A stretch of DNA of 64,000 bases, taken from positions 52,131 through 116,130 of the IMG/VR virus record IMGVR_UViG_3300032893_000010. One strand, written 5' to 3'. Position numbers and translations under genes: made by a program. This DNA is from a virus. The notes below the pieces were generated by a model. The model was not told where the DNA came from, did no database searches, and was given only the letters and a program-made list of their open reading frames with translations. Of this stretch, positions 4,344 to 53,141 are shown one piece after another (position 1 is the first letter of the stretch; the number at the start of each line of letters is the position of its first letter).

Positions 4344-4702
4344 GTAAATCAAAAGCTAAGGGAACTGCTGCTGAGACTGCTATTGTCAATTACCTGAACG
4401 AGAGAAAATGGGAAGTAAAACGCAGACCACCTCAGGGAGCTAATGATAAAGGTGACATAGACTGCGGAAACTATCCTTTCATCTTGGAAGTCAAGAACTG
4501 CAAGCAGATGAAGCTGAGTGAATGGGTAGATGAAGCTGAGGTAGAAGCTGGCAGGGCAGCAGTTGACTATCCATGGCTAGACAACCCTCCAGCGGGCATT
4601 GTAGTACATAAAAGAGTCAGGAGAGGCCAGCCTAAAGACTGGTATGTGACCATGAGCGTTGATTCTTTCGTAAGGCTTGTAGAGGCTTGCTGGAAAGAAT
4701 AA
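4340..4702 (+). CDS. Holliday junction resolvase (phage PD-(D/E)XK type)
   Basis: SKSKAKGTAAE, DKGDI, LEVKN. Confidence 0.82.
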   Translation: MSKSKAKGTAAETAIVNYLNERKWEVKRRPPQGANDKGDIDCGNYPFILEVKNCKQMKLSEWVDEAEVEAGRAAVDYPWLDNPPAGIVVHKRVRRGQPKDWYVTMSVDSFVRLVEACWKE

Positions 4703-4748: not shown

Positions 4749-5015
4749 ATGGAAGAAACGCTATTAAAGGTCAAGGGCTCAAGCTCAGCACCTTCTCTAG
4801 CCAGCGTAATAGCACACGGAGTATACGAGAACAAGAAGCTGTGTCTTCGTGCCATAGGAGCATCAGCAGTTAATCAGGCAATGAAAGCAGTTGCCATAGC
4901 TCAATCATATGTTGGAGCTAAGGGAATGAGATTGCTTGTCATACCTGGTTTCACTGATGTTGAAATGGATGACGCTACTGTCACAGCTCTTGTATTCAGG
5001 ATAAGAACGGAATAG
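4749..5015 (+). CDS. spoVS: SpoVS family (Alba-fold) protein
   Basis: LKVKGSS..LAS.IA..RAIGASAVNQAMKAVAIA. Confidence 0.85.
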   Translation: MEETLLKVKGSSSAPSLASVIAHGVYENKKLCLRAIGASAVNQAMKAVAIAQSYVGAKGMRLLVIPGFTDVEMDDATVTALVFRIRTE

Positions 5016-33696: not shown

Positions 33697-34167
33697 ATGG
33701 TGCATAAAAGACCTGAAGCTTTCATCTGCGACATCGATGGCACTATCGCAGATCACGGAGATGAGGAAAGCGGTCTCATCAGAGGTCACTATGAGTATGA
33801 CAAGGTGAAGTTCGACCGTCCGAAGCCTGAGGTTATCAGGGTCGTCAGGATTCTGTCGAAGGAACTTCAGCCTATCTTCGTATCAGGAAGGATGGATGAA
33901 TCTGCTAATCCGGTGAGGATCGATACAGTTCACTGGATCAAGAGTAATGTGTGGCCGTACGACATCAATCCTCAGTGGCCTTTGTTCATGAGAGCTGACG
34001 GTGATTACAGAGCAGATTACGTGATAAAGGAAGAGATCTTCACTAAGCTGATTGAGCCTCGGTGGAATGTGAGGTTCGCTATTGATGACAGGCTTCAGGT
34101 ATGCCGGATGTGGCATAGGATAGGAGTCCCTGTGTTCAGGGTGGGAGATCCTGATGCAGTCTTTTAA
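33697..34167 (+). CDS. PNKP-type 3'-phosphatase (HAD)
   Basis: DIDGTIA, VSGR, MRADGD.R.D..IKEE, IDDR. Confidence 0.85.
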   Translation: MVHKRPEAFICDIDGTIADHGDEESGLIRGHYEYDKVKFDRPKPEVIRVVRILSKELQPIFVSGRMDESANPVRIDTVHWIKSNVWPYDINPQWPLFMRADGDYRADYVIKEEIFTKLIEPRWNVRFAIDDRLQVCRMWHRIGVPVFRVGDPDAVF

Positions 34168-44059: not shown

Positions 44060-44530
44060 GTGGTTAAGTATATTTTCGTAGACGTTGATGGGGTAGTAAA
44101 TCCTGTTGTCTTAAGAGAAGGAGGGGAGAAATTGTTGGCCCTTCCACATGGAACGGACACACAAGGCTACTACCTGCGCTTACATAAAGATTACGGCAGG
44201 TGGCTAAAGCAGCTATCAGAAGATACTGAATCTTTCCTGGTATGGGGTTCAACCTGGCAAATACATGCTAACAGATGGGTGGGAGAATATCTTGAGTTAC
44301 CTCATTTGTCACATCTTGACCTTTCTCAGGGAAGGTTTTCTGAGTCTTTAGGTTCTATTAAGGCTGATGCTGCTAATAAATATGCGGATGGCAACAGGTT
44401 CGTCTTCTTTGATGATGAGCCTGATCTAGGTAGCCGCCTGGCTGATAATGGCTTGCATATCCGTATAGATTACAGGTCAGGACTAGAGGAATATCATATA
44501 GAAGAGGCAAGAAACTACCTGCTTTCATGA
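44060..44530 (+). CDS. HAD-domain phosphatase (RNA-repair-associated type)
   Basis: FVDVDGVVN, VWGSTW, FFDD. Confidence 0.78.
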   Translation: MVKYIFVDVDGVVNPVVLREGGEKLLALPHGTDTQGYYLRLHKDYGRWLKQLSEDTESFLVWGSTWQIHANRWVGEYLELPHLSHLDLSQGRFSESLGSIKADAANKYADGNRFVFFDDEPDLGSRLADNGLHIRIDYRSGLEEYHIEEARNYLLS

Positions 44531-48108: not shown

Positions 48109-49188
48109 ATGGCTTTATATAGTCTTGAGCAAGAGCCTCAGAACCATGTTACGTTCGTTTTTGATGAATCGTACAGCATGTATCCCCATTCTGTGGCTCT
48201 TGTCAAGCTTTTTGACAACGAAGTTCGCTATCTGGCTAAGAGAAGCCTGGAAATGAACCAGGAAACTCGTGTTTCCGTGTATCTTTTCAGCAATCCTGGC
48301 ACTGCTAGATGCGTTTTGTACGACTCTGACGTGCTCAGAGCGCAAGAATCCTTCACTTTGAAGGGAAAATACAGCCCTGAGGGCAATACAGCCCTGTGTG
48401 ATGCTGCTGTTCTTGCTGTCGAAGACCTGAAAATGGTTCCTACTAAGTACGGACAGCACTCCCACTGGCTTATGATCTTTACTGATGGCATAGAGAACAG
48501 CAGTTCTTTCAATAACAGGCGGAAAATCAAGACTTTGATTCCGTCTCTGACCGATGAGTGGACTGTTTCTATCTTCGTCCCAGATCAGATTGCTAAGAAG
48601 CAGGTTACCGACTGGGGTTTCCCCAAAGATAATGTAGCTATCTGGGATACGACCTCTGAAAGAGGCATGGATGAGGTTGTAAACACAGTACGTAAGGCTT
48701 CTGAATCGTATTTCACGCTGAGGTCTACCGGCGCTAAGGGCTCTAAGAGCCTATTCTCACTGAATTCTCTCACCCGAGCTCAGATCAGGAGTGAGCTTAA
48801 GCCTCTCCCGTATGGTTATTACCAGATTTTGCAGCATCCTAAGGATGTGAAGACGACTATCTGGATCAGGGACCTGGTTAATAACAAGCTTCCCCTGACA
48901 TATAAGAGAGGGTATGGCTACTATGAACTGGTAAAGAATGAGCATATCAAGGGTCATAAGGGTGTTATCATCGAGCAGGGCGGACAGTTCTATGCTGGTA
49001 ACGCAAGGGATCTTCTAGGGCTGCCGGATGATGAGGTAAAGGTCGGCCCAGATCACTCCACGGAGTATAAGATCTTCGTGCAGAGTGATAGCCACAACAG
49101 GAATATCATTCCTGGCCAGCGTGTCTTGTACCTGACAGGTAATGGGTTGACTCACTGGCCGCAATTTCCGCTGAAAATTTCTGAATAA
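48109..49188 (+). CDS. vWA-domain protein
   Basis: MIDAS DESYSM, GNTALCDA, FTDGIENSS. Confidence 0.82.
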   Translation: MALYSLEQEPQNHVTFVFDESYSMYPHSVALVKLFDNEVRYLAKRSLEMNQETRVSVYLFSNPGTARCVLYDSDVLRAQESFTLKGKYSPEGNTALCDAAVLAVEDLKMVPTKYGQHSHWLMIFTDGIENSSSFNNRRKIKTLIPSLTDEWTVSIFVPDQIAKKQVTDWGFPKDNVAIWDTTSERGMDEVVNTVRKASESYFTLRSTGAKGSKSLFSLNSLTRAQIRSELKPLPYGYYQILQHPKDVKTTIWIRDLVNNKLPLTYKRGYGYYELVKNEHIKGHKGVIIEQGGQFYAGNARDLLGLPDDEVKVGPDHSTEYKIFVQSDSHNRNIIPGQRVLYLTGNGLTHWPQFPLKISE

Positions 49189-49193
49189 AATCC

Positions 49194-49222
49194 TTGACAT
49201 CATGTCCCGAACGTGGTATCAT
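49194..49222 (+). promoter_or_regulatory. promoter for the tRNA/Y RNA/Ro60 operon
   Basis: TTGACA-N17-TATCAT with upstream AAATTTCTGAAT. Confidence 0.7.
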
Positions 49223-49497: not shown

Positions 49498-49857
49498 ATG
49501 ATATACTTAGATATGGCAAAAAGCAAGGAAGCTCAATCTAAAGCGTCTCGTAAACATTACGAGAACAACCGTCAGGCAATGATAGCTCGTGCAATGAAGT
49601 TTAAAGACGAGTTAAAGAAAAGCATAAGACAGTACATACAAGATCTGAAATCCTCAACACCTTGCAAGGACTGTGAGGTTCAGTATCCATATTATGTTAT
49701 GCATTTCGACCATTTACCTGAGTTTGAAAAAAAGTTTGATATTGGGAACTCTTCTAAGTGGACAAGCATGAAGAAGGTTCTTGATGAGATGGAAAAATGT
49801 GAGATAGTTTGCGCTAACTGTCACGCAGAAAGAACACATCGACGCGCGGTGGTGTAA
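49498..49857 (+). CDS. HNH endonuclease
   Basis: CKDC, FDH, CEIVCANCH. Confidence 0.88.
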   Translation: MIYLDMAKSKEAQSKASRKHYENNRQAMIARAMKFKDELKKSIRQYIQDLKSSTPCKDCEVQYPYYVMHFDHLPEFEKKFDIGNSSKWTSMKKVLDEMEKCEIVCANCHAERTHRRAVV

Positions 49858-49914
49858 AGGGAACACGCTGGTCTCATAAGCCAGATAATGCCAGTTCGAG
49901 TCTGGTCTGCGCTA
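49843..49914 (+). tRNA. tRNA-Met(CAT), 1:72 mismatch (initiator-like)
   Basis: cloverleaf; overlaps the HNH stop. Confidence 0.85.
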
Positions 49915-49950
49915 CGAACTAGGATTGATTTATCTAGGATAAAGTTTAAT

Positions 49951-50074
49951 GCCAGGTGCATTGAGTACAGATACTTCATTAGCAGAGCCAATATTTGCTA
50001 TAGCTCAAGATAAGAGCGCCGACTTCATACGTCGGAGGTTATGACATTTCTCTGTTCTCGCCCGATTCTCTGGC
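49951..50074 (+). ncRNA. Y-RNA-like 2 (tRNA-CAT opened at T loop)
   Basis: scaffold plus TAGCAGA-GCCA-ATA-TTTGCTA, D arm, CCGAC-TTCATAC-GTCGG. Confidence 0.75.
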
Positions 50075-50314
50075 GCTAATTTTAACTTAGGAGGAAGAAA
50101 GTGTACGTAACAGGTAAAGAACTTATATCTGAACTTCAGAGATTACCTGAAGAAGCCCAGAATCTGGCAGTTTACTTCAAGTGCAGAGAGAATAATCTTG
50201 AGGGAATGCTGGAAGTGTTTGATTTGAAAGTCGTTCCTGCTGGATACGGGCAGGTTATTCTTCTTCTTCCTGCTTAATTAAGTTTGTCCATACTGTACCT
50301 CCTTCCGTATGGAT

Positions 50315-50605: not shown

Positions 50606-50748
50606 AAATCCAGGTGCAATTGCGAGAGTTACTTCATACAAATGATCAAATCGGAAAAGATAATTCTCTGTAAAAGAATAAATTGCAGGTTCAAGTCCTG
50701 CTTTGTATAGCAAAGCTAATAAACTCTTGCTTCCTATTCTCTGGATTT
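50606..50748 (+). ncRNA. Y-RNA-like 4 (linear tRNA-GTA embedded)
   Basis: scaffold around a cloverleaf at 50636-50709. Confidence 0.75.
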
Positions 50749-51090: not shown

Positions 51091-51201
51091 ATGGCAGCTA
51101 AACTATGCGGGTGTACTTGTCCCTCATGCCAGGAGATTAACTTCTTCGGCAGAGGCAGTCACTGCGGCAGCAAGAAATGCACGAGTACTATGGAAAAATA
51201 A
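51091..51201 (+). CDS. 36-aa Cys-rich peptide
   Basis: GGAGG RBS; CGCTCPSC..HC..C. Confidence 0.5.
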   Translation: MAAKLCGCTCPSCQEINFFGRGSHCGSKKCTSTMEK

Positions 51202-51210
51202 TTTAATATT

Positions 51211-51461: not shown

Positions 51462-53141
51462 ATGGCACGACAGAACACAGTACGTCTGACTTCAAGGACA
51501 ACTCCCCTGAAGTCAGAGTACTCATCAACAGCTAGAACAGCTACAGGTGGCCAGGGTTTCGTTTCTGATTCTAACTCTGAGCTGTTCAGGCTCGGAGTAA
51601 ACGGCTTGTTAGGTAAGGAAGAAACTTACCATGAAAGCGGTAAGTCCAGGGACAGCAGGTTCACTGATCTTGTTTCTGAGCTTGCTGTAAATGATCCTGG
51701 CTGGACAGCAGGATTTCTTACATGGCTTCGTGGTCCGGAGGCTAATATCAGGACAGCATCTCTTATTGGTGCTGCTGATTATGTGCATGCAAGACTAGCT
51801 GCTGGTGTTAAGGAATCCGGTAAGTCTAAGGGTTTCAACAGGACAGTAGTCGATGGTGTATGCCAGAGAGCTGATGAGCCTGGTGAACTTGCAAGCATTT
51901 ATCTTTCTGAATACGGTAAGCTTCCTAAGCCAGTGAAGAGAGGTCTGGGGGATGCTGCTTCTAGGCTGTGGAATCCTTATGCCACGATGAAGTACGATAC
52001 TGCTTCTCATGGCCTGAGGTTTGCTGATGTTATGAACCTTTCCCATTTCACGCTTGCTGACAATGAACTAGCAGCTCATATTATCAACCGCAGGTACGGT
52101 AATGATGAGGATTGGGCTTCTCTTCCTGAGATGGTGAAGAACAATATTTCCCTGAGGAAGGAAGTTGCCAAGGGCAACTACGACATTCTGACCAATTCCA
52201 GGGTTCTCAAGTCTGCTGGCATGACATGGGAAGACGCTTTGTCTCTTGCCGGAAATCATGTTCCTAAGGACAAGCTGTGGAACGCTCTTATCCTTGGCGG
52301 TCAGGTTCCTATCTTCGCTGCACTGAGAAACCTCAGGAATTTCACTGAGGCTGGGATCTCTCAGCAGGCCAAGGAATATATTCATGATCAGCTAACTAAT
52401 GAAATAATAATCGCTAAGTCGAGAATCTTGCCATTCAGATTCCTGTCAGCGCTTGAGGCTCAGGATTCATATGAGTGGTACAGTGACCTTGAGACCGCTG
52501 TTCAGATTGCCACTAGGAACGTTCCAAGGCTTGAAGGCAAGACTATCGTCCTTGTTGATACTTCAGGTTCAATGGATTCTCCGGTGAGCAATAAGTCCAA
52601 GATGACACGTTCTGGTCTTGCTGCTTTCTTCGGCGGCGCTTTTGCGGCGCATAACTCAGATGATGTAGCTTTGTACATTTATGCTGACGGTGTTAAGAGA
52701 ATTCCTGTGAAGAAGGGACATTCTGTGCTGAAGCTGGCTGAGGAAATGCATCGCAGGACTGGTGAGGTCGGGCATGGTACTCAGACAGGAAGGGCCATGA
52801 GGCAGGCTTGTTCTGAGAATCCGGATGCTAAGAGGCTTATCGACAATACTGACATGCAGTCTTTTGCTCATGGTTCAAGAGCACATGTTTTAAGTTACAG
52901 CGGCTTTGGTTTCAGTTCATACAACAGTAATGGTTATTCAAGGCAAGGTACTGCTGCTGACGTTCCTGATAGTGTGTTCTTGTATTCTAACGACCTGTCA
53001 GGATATAAGACAGCTAACGTCCAGACTGGTGATGGTTCCCGTACTCATCAGCTATCAGGTATGATGGGTGATTCTACTTACAAGTGGATGAAGGCTATCG
53101 AAGCTGGCACGAATGCTGACTGGCCATGGCTGAAGAAGTAA
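51462..53141 (+). CDS. Ro60/TROVE-domain RNA-binding protein (Rsr homolog)
   Basis: QRADEPGE, KYD, MTWE, ALRNLRNF, SRILPFRF, vWA VDTSGSM. Confidence 0.9.
   Translation: MARQNTVRLTSRTTPLKSEYSSTARTATGGQGFVSDSNSELFRLGVNGLLGKEETYHESGKSRDSRFTDLVSELAVNDPGWTAGFLTWLRGPEANIRTASLIGAADYVHARLAAGVKESGKSKGFNRTVVDGVCQRADEPGELASIYLSEYGKLPKPVKRGLGDAASRLWNPYATMKYDTASHGLRFADVMNLSHFTLADNELAAHIINRRYGNDEDWASLPEMVKNNISLRKEVAKGNYDILTNSRVLKSAGMTWEDALSLAGNHVPKDKLWNALILGGQVPIFAALRNLRNFTEAGISQQAKEYIHDQLTNEIIIAKSRILPFRFLSALEAQDSYEWYSDLETAVQIATRNVPRLEGKTIVLVDTSGSMDSPVSNKSKMTRSGLAAFFGGAFAAHNSDDVALYIYADGVKRIPVKKGHSVLKLAEEMHRRTGEVGHGTQTGRAMRQACSENPDAKRLIDNTDMQSFAHGSRAHVLSYSGFGFSSYNSNGYSRQGTAADVPDSVFLYSNDLSGYKTANVQTGDGSRTHQLSGMMGDSTYKWMKAIEAGTNADWPWLKK

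What the first reader, a model, noticed from the sequence alone, without database searches (positions are those of the whole stretch)
49951..50074. Y-like 2: a tRNA(CAT) circularly permuted at the T loop
Order inside the scaffold: TCAT (T-stem 3' strand), TAGCAGA (acceptor 3'), GCCA, linker ATA, TTTGCTA (acceptor 5'), TA, D arm GCTC..GAGC, anticodon arm CCGAC-TTCATAC-GTCGG, AGGTT, ATGA (T-stem 5' strand). The Ro scaffold replaces the T loop and leaves an intact CAU anticodon loop exposed. Known YrlA topology replaces the anticodon arm instead.
Basis: partly seen in the sequence, partly recalled or inferred. Interest (0 to 1): 0.85.

Follow-up and report, generated by a model that had tools for sequence, protein, structure and literature searches.

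The report
Phage Y RNA with T-armless tRNA mimic
A 116-kb phage from a wetland metagenome encodes, just upstream of its Ro60 gene, a 124-base RNA that combines the shared Y-RNA docking stem with a tRNA look-alike that keeps the acceptor, D and anticodon arms but has no T arm; this layout is conserved in six phages and differs from every Y RNA module described in the papers I could read.

Summary

**Structure.** The element folds as a Y-RNA-type stem (P1, internal loop, P2) that leads into a four-way junction. The junction carries:
- a loop-closed 7-bp acceptor stem with GCCA in its loop;
- U8-A9 and a D arm;
- a 5-bp arm with a 7-nt loop displaying CAU;
- a 5-nt variable loop.

The helix to the scaffold sits where a tRNA has its T stem.

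**Conservation.** Five orthologs exist in other Ro60-encoding phages. Helices covary (83-88% of cells paired, against 38-45% in slid controls; 0 of 500 shuffles reach the observed values). The tRNA core tertiary positions are invariant. The 15:48 pair covaries, and the D-loop GG that docks a T loop is missing in all six.

**Identity.** It is one of eight scaffold-sharing RNAs upstream of a TROVE+VWA (Ro60) gene, so it is most likely a Y RNA paralog. Published YrlA puts the scaffold at the anticodon stem and Yrn1 at the acceptor. This one puts it at the T stem and shows an anticodon loop without an elbow.

**Limits.** CAU is kept in only 3 of 6 orthologs. No expression, Ro60-binding or function data exist. 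This scan has noted related Ro60-partner RNA arrays on other phage DNA.

**Verdict:** a new variant of a known kind.

The parts
49951..49955 (+). P1 5' strand (outer helix of the Y-RNA-type scaffold); pairs with 50070-50074
   Evidence: 5 pairs, 97% of cells paired; 3 of the 5 pairs change on both sides across six orthologs. The third pair flips A-U to U-A among the eight paralogs in the window.
49956..49962 (+). 5' side of the large internal loop (GTGCATT), at the place of the CGAA-type Ro60-binding motif of Y RNAs
   Evidence: GGTG is shared by all eight paralogs. Paralog Y7 has GCGAA here. The CGAA motif in a bulge is the published hallmark (PMC12135203). In this copy the motif is degenerate.
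49963..49971 (+). P2 5' strand; pairs with 50051-50059 (one U-U mismatch)
   Evidence: 9 pairs, 7 of them changed on both sides, 91% of cells paired. RNAalifold predicts the helix independently on the MFFT alignment A2 made by MAFFT.
49972..49977 (+). TACTTC motif, conserved in nearly all scaffolds of this RNA family; its last bases enter P3
   Evidence: Invariant in all six orthologs. Present in seven of the eight window paralogs, with TGCTTC in Y1, and in distant high-GC phage scaffolds.
49976..49979 (+). P3 5' strand (TCAT), in the T-stem 3'-strand position; pairs with 50041-50044
   Evidence: A 3-4 bp helix is present in all six orthologs (TCAT/ATGA, TTC/GAA or CTTC/GAAG). It is contiguous with the acceptor strand and the variable loop (read by hand).
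49980..50000 (+). Loop-closed 7-bp acceptor-like stem (49980-49986 with 49994-50000); loop GCCAATA begins with discriminator-like G plus CCA
   Evidence: Forms in the MFE fold. A 7-bp stem abutting U8-A9 is present in all six orthologs, with compensatory changes between the window and L173. The first loop base is G in five and A in one. NCCA is present in the window, L173 and L004.
50001..50018 (+). U8-A9, D arm (GCTC, 7-nt loop, GAGC) and G26; the D loop lacks the GG of tRNA positions 18-19
   Evidence: The D stem is invariant in all six. GG is absent in 6 of 6 T-armless copies and present in 6 of 6 relatives that keep a T arm.
50019..50035 (+). Anticodon-like arm: 5-bp stem and 7-nt loop TTCATAC, with CAT at 50026-50028
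   Evidence: 4 of the 5 stem pairs change on both sides, 97% of cells paired. Rfam's tRNA model aligns it to the anticodon arm. Ortholog loops are TTCATAG (twice), CTCAAAA, TTTGTAA and CGCGGG.
50036..50040 (+). Variable loop AGGTT (positions 44-48)
   Evidence: AGGT(T/C) in all six orthologs. The last base covaries with D-loop base 15: A:U in four and G:C in two.
50041..50044 (+). P3 3' strand (ATGA), in the T-stem 5'-strand position
   Evidence: See P3 5' strand.
50045..50074 (+). Scaffold 3' half: linker 50045-50050, P2 3' strand 50051-50059, internal loop 50060-50069 (contains ATTCT), P1 3' strand 50070-50074
   Evidence: ATTCTC(T/A)GG ends seven of the eight paralogs. Covariation is shown.
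51462..53141 (+). Ro60/Rsr ortholog (559 aa, TROVE + VWA), the presumed protein partner
   Evidence: Pfam TROVE E 2.5e-17 and VWA_2 E 1e-6. PDB match to Thermus phage phiLo Ro60 9KOP/9L5Y at E 6e-15.
49194..49222 (+). Candidate sigma-70-type promoter (TTGACA, 17 nt, TATCAT with TG) upstream of tRNA-Glu and the whole tRNA/Y-RNA array
   Evidence: 11 of 12 consensus matches. This is a consensus match only, and the scan found no more sites than shuffles give.
49843..49915 (+). tRNA-Met(cat), 36 nt upstream of the element
   Evidence: A tRNA(cat) also directly precedes the ortholog in L173, L002 and L003.

Best explanation
The element is a non-coding Y RNA, one of eight paralogs encoded upstream of the phage's Ro60 gene.

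Its two ends pair into the family's shared scaffold (P1, a large internal loop with the GGTG... motif, and P2). By analogy with solved Ro60-Y RNA complexes, this scaffold docks on the Ro60 ring (inferred).

The inner end of the scaffold continues through a 4-bp helix into a four-way junction that is a tRNA core without a T arm. The 4-bp helix takes the T-stem position and stacks under a loop-closed 7-bp acceptor stem. The D stem stacks on a 5-bp anticodon-like arm. The usual core contacts (8:14, 15:48, 26:44 and the D-stem triples) can form.

There is no T loop and no G18-G19, so there is no tRNA elbow. The RNA therefore presents an anticodon-type loop (CAU here) and an acceptor end, but not the elbow that YrlA presents.

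The most likely role (inferred, not shown) is as an adaptor or decoy. It would bring to Ro60, or hold away from real tRNAs, a factor that reads the anticodon arm and acceptor rather than the elbow. This would fit a contest over tRNA integrity in a phage that carries 29 tRNA genes and RNA-repair domains.
For: **Position and family**
- The element lies 1.39 kb upstream of a TROVE+VWA gene on the same strand.
- It shares CC(A/T)GGTG...TACTTC and ATTCTC(T/A)GG with seven neighbours. The 5' pattern occurs 4 times against 0.06 expected.
- A model built on the element finds scaffold-only matches just upstream of the Ro60 gene in at least 30 of the 80 IMG/VR loci searched, and in many metagenome loci.

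**Orthologs**
- L173 (Ro60 70% identical), L002, L003 and L004 (44-46%) and L158 score 95-119 bits; the next-best hits score 44 bits or less.
- All four relatives' records tested (those of L158, L002, L003 and L004) encode TROVE.
- In the 67-kb phage of L158 it is the Ro60-proximal RNA, about 0.4 kb upstream.

**Structure**
- 88% of cells are paired (83.5% on the plain MAFFT alignment), against 38-45% in slid controls.
- 17 pairs (15 on MAFFT) change on both sides, and 0 of 500 shuffles reach the observed values.
- RNAalifold independently returns P1, P2, the acceptor hairpin, the D arm and the anticodon-like arm.

**tRNA core**
- U8-A9, the D stem, G26 and AGGTY are invariant.
- The 15:48 pair covaries, A:U in four and G:C in two.
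- D-loop GG is absent in 6 of 6 T-armless copies and present in 6 of 6 relatives with a T arm.
- Rearranged modules are called tRNA in 6 of 6 cases, against 0 of 300 shuffles.

**Context**
- The phage encodes a PNKP phosphatase and a HAD_SAK_2 RNA-repair domain.
- Published phage Ro60 binds Y-like RNAs of stem-bulge-stem form (PMC12135203).
Against: - No RNA-level evidence exists. No transcript ends, abundance, Ro60 binding or probing data are available, and no RNA run is listed.
- The Rfam YrlA model does not match this element at all. It matches the clearest paralogs only weakly (23.6 and 15.7 bits against a cut-off of 69).
- The CGAA-type motif is degenerate in this copy (GCATT).
- P3 is short (3-4 bp), differs in register between orthologs, and is not in the RNAalifold consensus.
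- The loop triplet is not conserved (CAU 3, CAA 1, UGU 1, one 6-nt loop). A CAU-specific function therefore cannot be general.
- Only six sequences support the covariation, and related sequences can exceed shuffles without structure. The slid-partner control is the stronger one here.
Confidence: 0.72

Rival explanations
1. It is a processed, chargeable split tRNA. RNase P cuts in the acceptor loop 5' of 49994, as it does in M. smegmatis YrlA. The upstream piece is trimmed to ...GCCA. The result would be a two-piece T-armless tRNA(CAU) that is aminoacylated or otherwise used in translation while held by the scaffold.
For: [quoted passage not shown] NCCA directly follows the stem in the window, L173 and L004. 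The first loop base is always a purine. The window and L173 have only one conventional tRNA(cat), whereas L002 and L003 have two.
Against: Three orthologs encode no CCA. The anticodon triplet varies and one loop has 6 nt. There is no elbow, which RNase P, the CCA-adding enzyme and the ribosome normally use (established knowledge; Wang 2018). L002 keeps CAU although it has two tRNA(cat) genes.
Confidence: 0.07
2. It is not a Ro60 partner. It would instead be a structured spacer or processing element of the polycistronic tRNA transcript (for example an RNase entry or stop site), or a leader of the small ORF at 50101-50277, and it only happens to lie near the Ro60 gene.
For: It sits 36 nt after tRNA-Met and 27 nt before a strong ribosome-binding site and ORF. 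A similar ORF follows the L173 copy. No binding data exist.
Against: L003 keeps the RNA without that ORF. In the 67-kb phage G001 it lies next to the Ro60 gene with no tRNA gene nearby. The scaffold is found beside Ro60 genes in dozens of otherwise unrelated phage loci. The invariant tRNA-core bases are not needed for a mere spacer.
Confidence: 0.1
3. The 50019-50035 hairpin is a T-arm mimic (its loop TTCATAC resembles TTCRANN), so the module would be an ordinary elbow-forming YrlA-like domain with shuffled arms.
For: A 5-bp stem and a 7-nt loop starting TTC fit both arm types.
Against: Loop position 5 is T where a T loop needs A58. Orthologs have CTCAAAA, TTTGTAA and CGCGGG, which lose U54, C56 or the loop length. 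All six D loops lack the GG partner. The hairpin follows G26 and precedes AGGTY, which is the anticodon-arm slot, and Rfam's tRNA model aligns it there.
Confidence: 0.03
4. It is a decaying remnant of a tRNA or Y RNA gene with no function.
For: The Ro-motif is degenerate in this copy. The phage has seven other paralogs that could cover the function.
Against: It is conserved in six phages whose Ro60 proteins are only 44-70% identical, with compensatory changes in four helices and invariant core bases.
Confidence: 0.03

Closest known systems
YrlA (Y RNA-like A; Rfam RF02553; Chen et al. 2014, PMC4201824; structure in Wang et al. 2018, bioRxiv 10.1101/312249)
   Same: Both are encoded next to a Ro60 gene. 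In both, the 5' and 3' ends form a stem-internal loop-stem scaffold. The inner module is a tRNA-like four-way junction with a loop-closed acceptor stem and a D arm, uses the same core contacts, and shows the same 15:48 covariation.
   Different: YrlA joins the scaffold at the anticodon stem, keeps the T arm and the T-loop/D-loop elbow, and has no anticodon loop. This RNA joins at the T stem, has no T loop and no G18-G19, and displays an anticodon-type loop. The Rfam model gives no match for it.
Deinococcus radiodurans Yrn1 (Chen et al. 2014)
   Same: It is a Y RNA whose module contains a 5-bp anticodon-like arm (with a 6-nt loop, like the L003 ortholog).
   Different: In Yrn1 the scaffold takes the acceptor position, a T arm is present and the variable arm is absent. 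Here the acceptor is present and closed, the T arm is absent and the variable loop is canonical.
Thermus phage phiLo Yrl1/Yrl2 with phage Ro60 (NAR 2025, PMC12135203; PDB 9KOP, 9L5Y)
   Same: The system is a phage-encoded Ro60 with several Y-like RNAs just upstream, of stem-bulge-stem form with a CGAA-type motif. The window's Ro60 matches that protein at E 6e-15.
   Different: In the passages I read, the phiLo RNAs are not described as carrying tRNA-like modules. That paper reports binding to host PNPase, and nothing comparable is known here.
Relatives in this RNA family with other joining points
   Same: They have the same scaffold and TACTTC motif, the same D-arm sequence, and they lie beside Ro60 genes.
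   Different: All of these keep a T arm and D-loop GG. Only the six copies described here lack both.
T-armless mitochondrial tRNAs of nematodes and permuted tRNA genes of Cyanidioschyzon merolae (from my own knowledge, not checked here)
   Same: The nematode tRNAs are tRNA cores that work without a T arm. The C. merolae genes place the 3' half before the 5' half, joined across the acceptor ends.
   Different: Those are real tRNAs with free ends after processing. The permuted genes keep the T-loop bases and use an archaeal-type splicing endonuclease. Here a long protein-docking helix replaces the T loop and the acceptor is closed.

Membership tests
Y RNA (Ro60/Rsr partner RNAs) | Encoded adjacent to a Ro60/TROVE gene | tested here: met
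   The element lies 1.39 kb upstream of the gene on the same strand, within an array of eight such RNAs. The records of L158, L002, L003 and L004 all encode TROVE. In G001 the element lies about 0.4 kb upstream.
Y RNA (Ro60/Rsr partner RNAs) | 5' and 3' ends pair into a long stem interrupted by a bulge or internal loop | tested here: met
   P1 and P2 are 97% and 91% paired, with 3 and 7 pairs changed on both sides. RNAalifold predicts both helices.
Y RNA (Ro60/Rsr partner RNAs) | Conserved CGAA-type motif in the internal loop (GNCGAA in Chen 2014; CGAA in PMC12135203) | tested here: inconclusive
   This copy has GTGCATT, the L173 ortholog has GCAAA, and paralog Y7 has GCGAA. The place is conserved but the letters are only partly conserved.
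Y RNA (Ro60/Rsr partner RNAs) | Bound and stabilised by Ro60 | not testable with these tools
   No RNA-protein binding tool is available and no RNA run was listed.
YrlA (Rfam RF02553) | Reaches the family's gathering score | tested here: not met
   There is no match for 49951-50074 even at E up to 10. Paralogs Y5 and Y6 reach 23.6 and 15.7 bits against a cut-off of 69.
YrlA (Rfam RF02553) | Module order T arm, closed acceptor, D arm, with the scaffold continuing the anticodon stem; T-loop/D-loop elbow | tested here: not met
   The order here is closed acceptor, D arm, anticodon-like arm, variable loop. There is no T loop and no D-loop GG.
tRNA (Rfam RF00005) | Complete cloverleaf with free acceptor ends, detected by tRNA finders | tested here: not met
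   ARAGORN finds nothing in the native order. Rfam gives a partial match of 21.3 bits, below the 29-bit cut-off, with the T loop deleted.
tRNA (Rfam RF00005) | Core bases for tertiary contacts (U8, A14, R15:Y48, G26, A44, G45, G46, 7-bp acceptor, 4-bp D stem, 5-bp anticodon stem) | tested here: met
   All are present in all six orthologs. The 15:48 pair covaries A:U to G:C.
tRNA (Rfam RF00005) | 7-nt anticodon loop with U33 and purine 37 | tested here: met
   Met in the window and in 5 of 6 orthologs overall. L003 has a 6-nt loop.
tRNA (Rfam RF00005) | T arm with T loop, and G18-G19 in the D loop | tested here: not met
   Both are absent in all six.
Yrn1-type Y RNA (D. radiodurans) | Scaffold in the acceptor position with a T arm retained | tested here: not met
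   The acceptor is present as a closed hairpin and the T arm is absent. The Yrn1 description comes from Chen 2014.

The most novel reading that the evidence does not exclude
These six RNAs define a class of phage Y RNA that hands Ro60 a bare anticodon arm plus acceptor end instead of a tRNA elbow. Under this reading the loop triplet (CAU, CAA, UGU) sets which anticodon-reading enzyme is captured, decoyed or delivered to Ro60-linked nucleases. Candidates are a synthetase, a wobble-base modifier such as TilS, or a host anticodon nuclease. A further possibility is that RNase P opens the acceptor loop to give a Ro60-tethered, chargeable T-armless tRNA.
Probability: 0.15. Interest if true: 0.85.

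Novelty: new variant of a known kind. Interest (0 to 1): 0.6.

Why it matters
What the tRNA-like domain of bacterial Y RNAs does is still an open question. The published expectation is an effector that reads the elbow (Wang 2018). This phage family offers natural variants of one scaffold that present different parts of a tRNA, and this variant presents the opposite set: anticodon arm and acceptor, with no elbow. That gives a clean comparative handle. Pull-downs with module-swapped RNAs could show which tRNA-binding proteins Ro60 particles engage, and whether phages use them in the fight over tRNA cleavage and repair. It also shows that a tRNA core can be held together with a long helix in place of the T arm.

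Tried and rejected
The contigs of the closest Ro60 relatives (P0002-P0010, 55-70% identical) could therefore not be fetched. Only L173 came in, through the one metagenome scan.
- **A single-protein scan of IMG/VR** found no relative. The alignment-based scan worked.
- **Three DNA-pattern scans of IMG/VR** gave mostly ordinary tRNAs or chance hits. Only L158 and the truncated L083 were added.
- **The blastn search of isolated phages** matched only the flanking tRNAs.
- **Sequencing runs:** no RNA holder was listed, and the only holder is a wetland metagenome DNA run that may be the source.
- **My scripted census of scaffold types** was both too loose and too strict, so I draw no frequencies from it.
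- **The T-arm reading of the 50019-50035 hairpin** was considered and rejected (see rivals).
- **Origin by duplication of the adjacent tRNA-Met:** the neighbouring tRNAs are not similar to the module. L003's second tRNA(cat) shares the D arm and a TTCATA loop, but this is too little to decide.
- **RNA ligase families** RtcB, RNA_ligase and RNA_lig_T4_1 were not found in the phage genome. The control for RNA_lig_T4_1 rang nowhere, so that answer is empty.
- **Papers not held:** the reviews PMC10870794 and PMC6047535. The id I recalled from memory for Burroughs and Aravind 2016 was also not held, and a title-phrase search found only papers that cite it. I cannot exclude that one of these mentions such a layout.

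Full report
**Where it is**

The window is the right-hand 64 kb of a 116,130-bp IMG/VR virus record rated complete. It carries 29 tRNA genes. It also carries a 559-aa TROVE+VWA protein at 51462-53141. By sequence that protein matches the solved Ro60 of Thermus phage phiLo (9KOP/9L5Y, E 6e-15) and RO60 itself.

Between a good promoter-like site at 49194-49222 and this gene lie three tRNAs, two small ORFs, an HNH endonuclease gene and eight RNA elements. The eight share a 5' CC(A/T)GGTG...TACTTC and a 3' ATTCTC(T/A)GG. The 5' pattern alone occurs four times, against 0.06 expected by chance. The finding concerns the second element, 49951-50074.

**The observation**

The minimum-energy fold of the single sequence already forms the three inner hairpins.

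Rfam's tRNA model aligns 50000-50048 to positions 7-64 with the T loop deleted, and it puts the 50019-50035 hairpin on the anticodon arm. The score is 21.3 bits, under the 29-bit cut-off.

I re-ordered the module as 49994-50044, then a generic T loop, then 49976-49990. ARAGORN then calls tRNA-Met(cat), and it calls nothing in the native order. The inserted loop could drive that result, so I repeated the test on all six orthologs and on 300 shuffles of the natural parts. It gave 6 of 6 calls against 0 of 300.

**Relatives**

Ro60 homologs are common in uncultured phages. There were 2,502 hits in the protein search and 489 confirmed IMG/VR loci.

Orthologs of the element turned up by pattern and then by a covariance model (R1):
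- L173, whose Ro60 is 70% identical;
- L002, L003 and L004, at 44-46% identity;
- L158, which lies in a complete 67-kb phage.

They score 95-119 bits, while nothing else exceeds 44 bits. The weaker matches are the shared scaffold alone. They lie just upstream of the Ro60 gene in at least 30 of the 80 IMG/VR loci and in many metagenome loci. This ties the scaffold to Ro60 far beyond this phage.

The records of L158, L002, L003 and L004 all encode TROVE. In the 67-kb phage the ortholog is the Ro60-proximal RNA, about 0.4 kb upstream, with no tRNA gene nearby.

**Structure support**

| Measure | Structure-fitted alignment | Plain MAFFT alignment |
|---|---|---|
| Cells paired | 88% | 83.5% |
| Cells paired with 3' partners slid 1-3 columns | 38-45% | 38-45% |
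| Pairs changed on both sides | 17 | 15 |
| Shuffles reaching the observed values | 0 of 500 | 0 of 500 on four of five measures (14 of 500 for further pair types) |

- P1, P2 and the anticodon-like stem carry most of the compensatory changes.
- The D stem never varies.
- RNAalifold, with no input from me, returns P1, P2, the acceptor hairpin, the D arm and the anticodon-like arm.
- The acceptor hairpin aligns badly because its loop length varies. Read by hand, all six copies have a 7-bp stem that ends exactly at U8-A9 (at most one mismatch). The window and L173 differ by two compensatory pairs.
- The closing helix P3 is TCAT/ATGA in three copies, TTC/GAA in two and CTTC/GAAG in one. In every copy it abuts the acceptor strand on one side and the variable loop on the other, as a T stem does.

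**The tRNA core without an elbow**

U8, A9, the D stem GCTC/GAGC, A14, G26 and the variable loop AGGTY are the same in all six copies. D-loop base 15 and the last variable-loop base covary: A with U in four copies and G with C in two. Chen et al. used the same Levitt-pair covariation for YrlA.

In contrast, the D loops of all six lack GG. Six relatives carry the same D stem inside the same scaffold but keep a T arm after the variable loop (L035, L067, L119, L127, L157, L166), and all of these have GG. A 0 of 6 against 6 of 6 split has a two-sided Fisher probability of 2/924.

So the absence of the T loop is matched by the absence of its docking partner. That is what a truly elbow-less fold predicts.

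**The loop**

The 7-nt loop reads TTCATAC in the window, TTCATAG in L173 and L002, CTCAAAA in L004 and TTTGTAA in L158. L003 has a 6-nt CGCGGG.

- Five of the six have pyrimidine-32, U33 and A37, the signature of an anticodon loop.
- None keeps the U54/C56/A58 set of a T loop.
- The three CAU copies differ in all stem pairs but one, yet share six of seven loop bases. The loop is therefore constrained in that lineage, but CAU is not a family feature.

**What it is**

Three lines of evidence point to a Y RNA paralog:
- the position beside Ro60;
- a covarying stem-loop-stem scaffold, with a GGTG(C)... motif where Y RNAs carry their CGAA-type motif (PMC12135203; Chen 2014);
- seven sister RNAs, two of which weakly match Rfam's YrlA over its full length.

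Published modules join the scaffold at the anticodon stem (YrlA; Rfam consensus; Wang 2018: 'YrlA lacks the anticodon loop') or at the acceptor (Yrn1). This one joins at the T stem.

Relatives show still other joining points on the same scaffold. The family has evidently explored many ways of mounting tRNA parts. The T-armless form may have arisen from the acceptor-D-anticodon-variable-T form by loss of the T hairpin, rather than by a fresh permutation.

**How it may work**

- Shown: sequence, conserved fold and genomic association.
- Inferred: Ro60 docks on P1/P2, and the acceptor stacks on P3 while the D stem stacks on the anticodon-like arm.
- Inferred further: the RNA presents an anticodon-type loop and a closed acceptor end to some factor that does not need the elbow, acting as tether or decoy.

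The phage's 29 tRNAs, a PNKP-type phosphatase (33697-34167) and a HAD_SAK_2 RNA-repair domain (44060-44530) fit a tRNA damage and repair setting. No RNA ligase family was found.

A bolder reading rests on the 7-bp stem and the encoded GCCA, with the M. smegmatis YrlA precedent. In it, RNase P opens the acceptor loop and yields a chargeable two-piece RNA. I rate it low because three orthologs lack CCA and the elbow is missing.

**Limits**

- Only six sequences support the fold.
- There are no RNA data.
- Two reviews could not be read, and the Burroughs and Aravind 2016 paper was not found in the library under the id I recalled or by a title-phrase search.
- This scan's earlier notes describe kindred Ro60-partner RNA arrays with tRNA pieces in other phages. 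I treat them as leads that agree with this reading, not as evidence for it.

Noticed in passing
window 50636-50709; L173 2814-2887; L003 5159-5231: The whole tRNA nested in scaffold Y4 changes only its anticodon between phages. It is GTA (Tyr) in the window, CTA (amber-reading) in L173 and TTA (ochre-reading) in L003 by ARAGORN. All lie inside scaffold matches of model R1. The variable loop is short, unlike bacterial tRNA-Tyr.
   Followed up: partly
window 49498-49857: An HNH endonuclease gene (PHROG E 4e-23) sits between Y1 and tRNA-Met, and its end overlaps the first 15 bases of the tRNA. L173 has a second short Y-like RNA at that place instead, so this is probably a mobile insertion.
   Followed up: partly
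window 50287-50313; L173 about 2468-2500; L003 about 4872-4900: A conserved motif CCATACTGTACCTCC, forming a hairpin whose loop holds CCTCC, precedes the third Y-like RNA in three phages. Its role is unknown (processing site, terminator or anti-Shine-Dalgarno-like element).
   Followed up: no
window 33697-34167 and 44060-44530: A PNKP-type phosphatase domain protein and a HAD_SAK_2 ('Swiss Army Knife' RNA repair) domain protein lie within and beside the tRNA cluster. No RtcB or Rnl-type ligase family was found in the genome.
   Followed up: partly
L007 5769-5905, L002 5533-5668, L004 5578-5711; L035 10353-10471, L157 about 4420-4560; L242 5428-5551: The same scaffold carries tRNA-like modules joined at other points: between the D and anticodon arms (a five-way junction with all arms), between the T stem and the acceptor, and in place of the acceptor. 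I found none of these layouts in the papers I could read.
   Followed up: partly
L491 1501-1620 (minus strand) = G001:50476-50595: A complete 67-kb phage with terminal repeats has only two scaffold RNAs next to a shorter (456-aa frame) TROVE gene, and the proximal one is of the T-armless type. No tRNA genes lie in the 3 kb around it.
   Followed up: partly
window 48109-49188: A 359-aa protein (phrog_26613, with a weak VWA match below the Pfam cut-off) ends just before the array's promoter. The same gene precedes the array in L173. A second VWA-type protein beside Ro60 may belong to the module.
   Followed up: no
window 50101-50277 and 51093-51206: Small ORFs with strong ribosome-binding sites are interleaved with the Y-like RNAs.
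   Followed up: no
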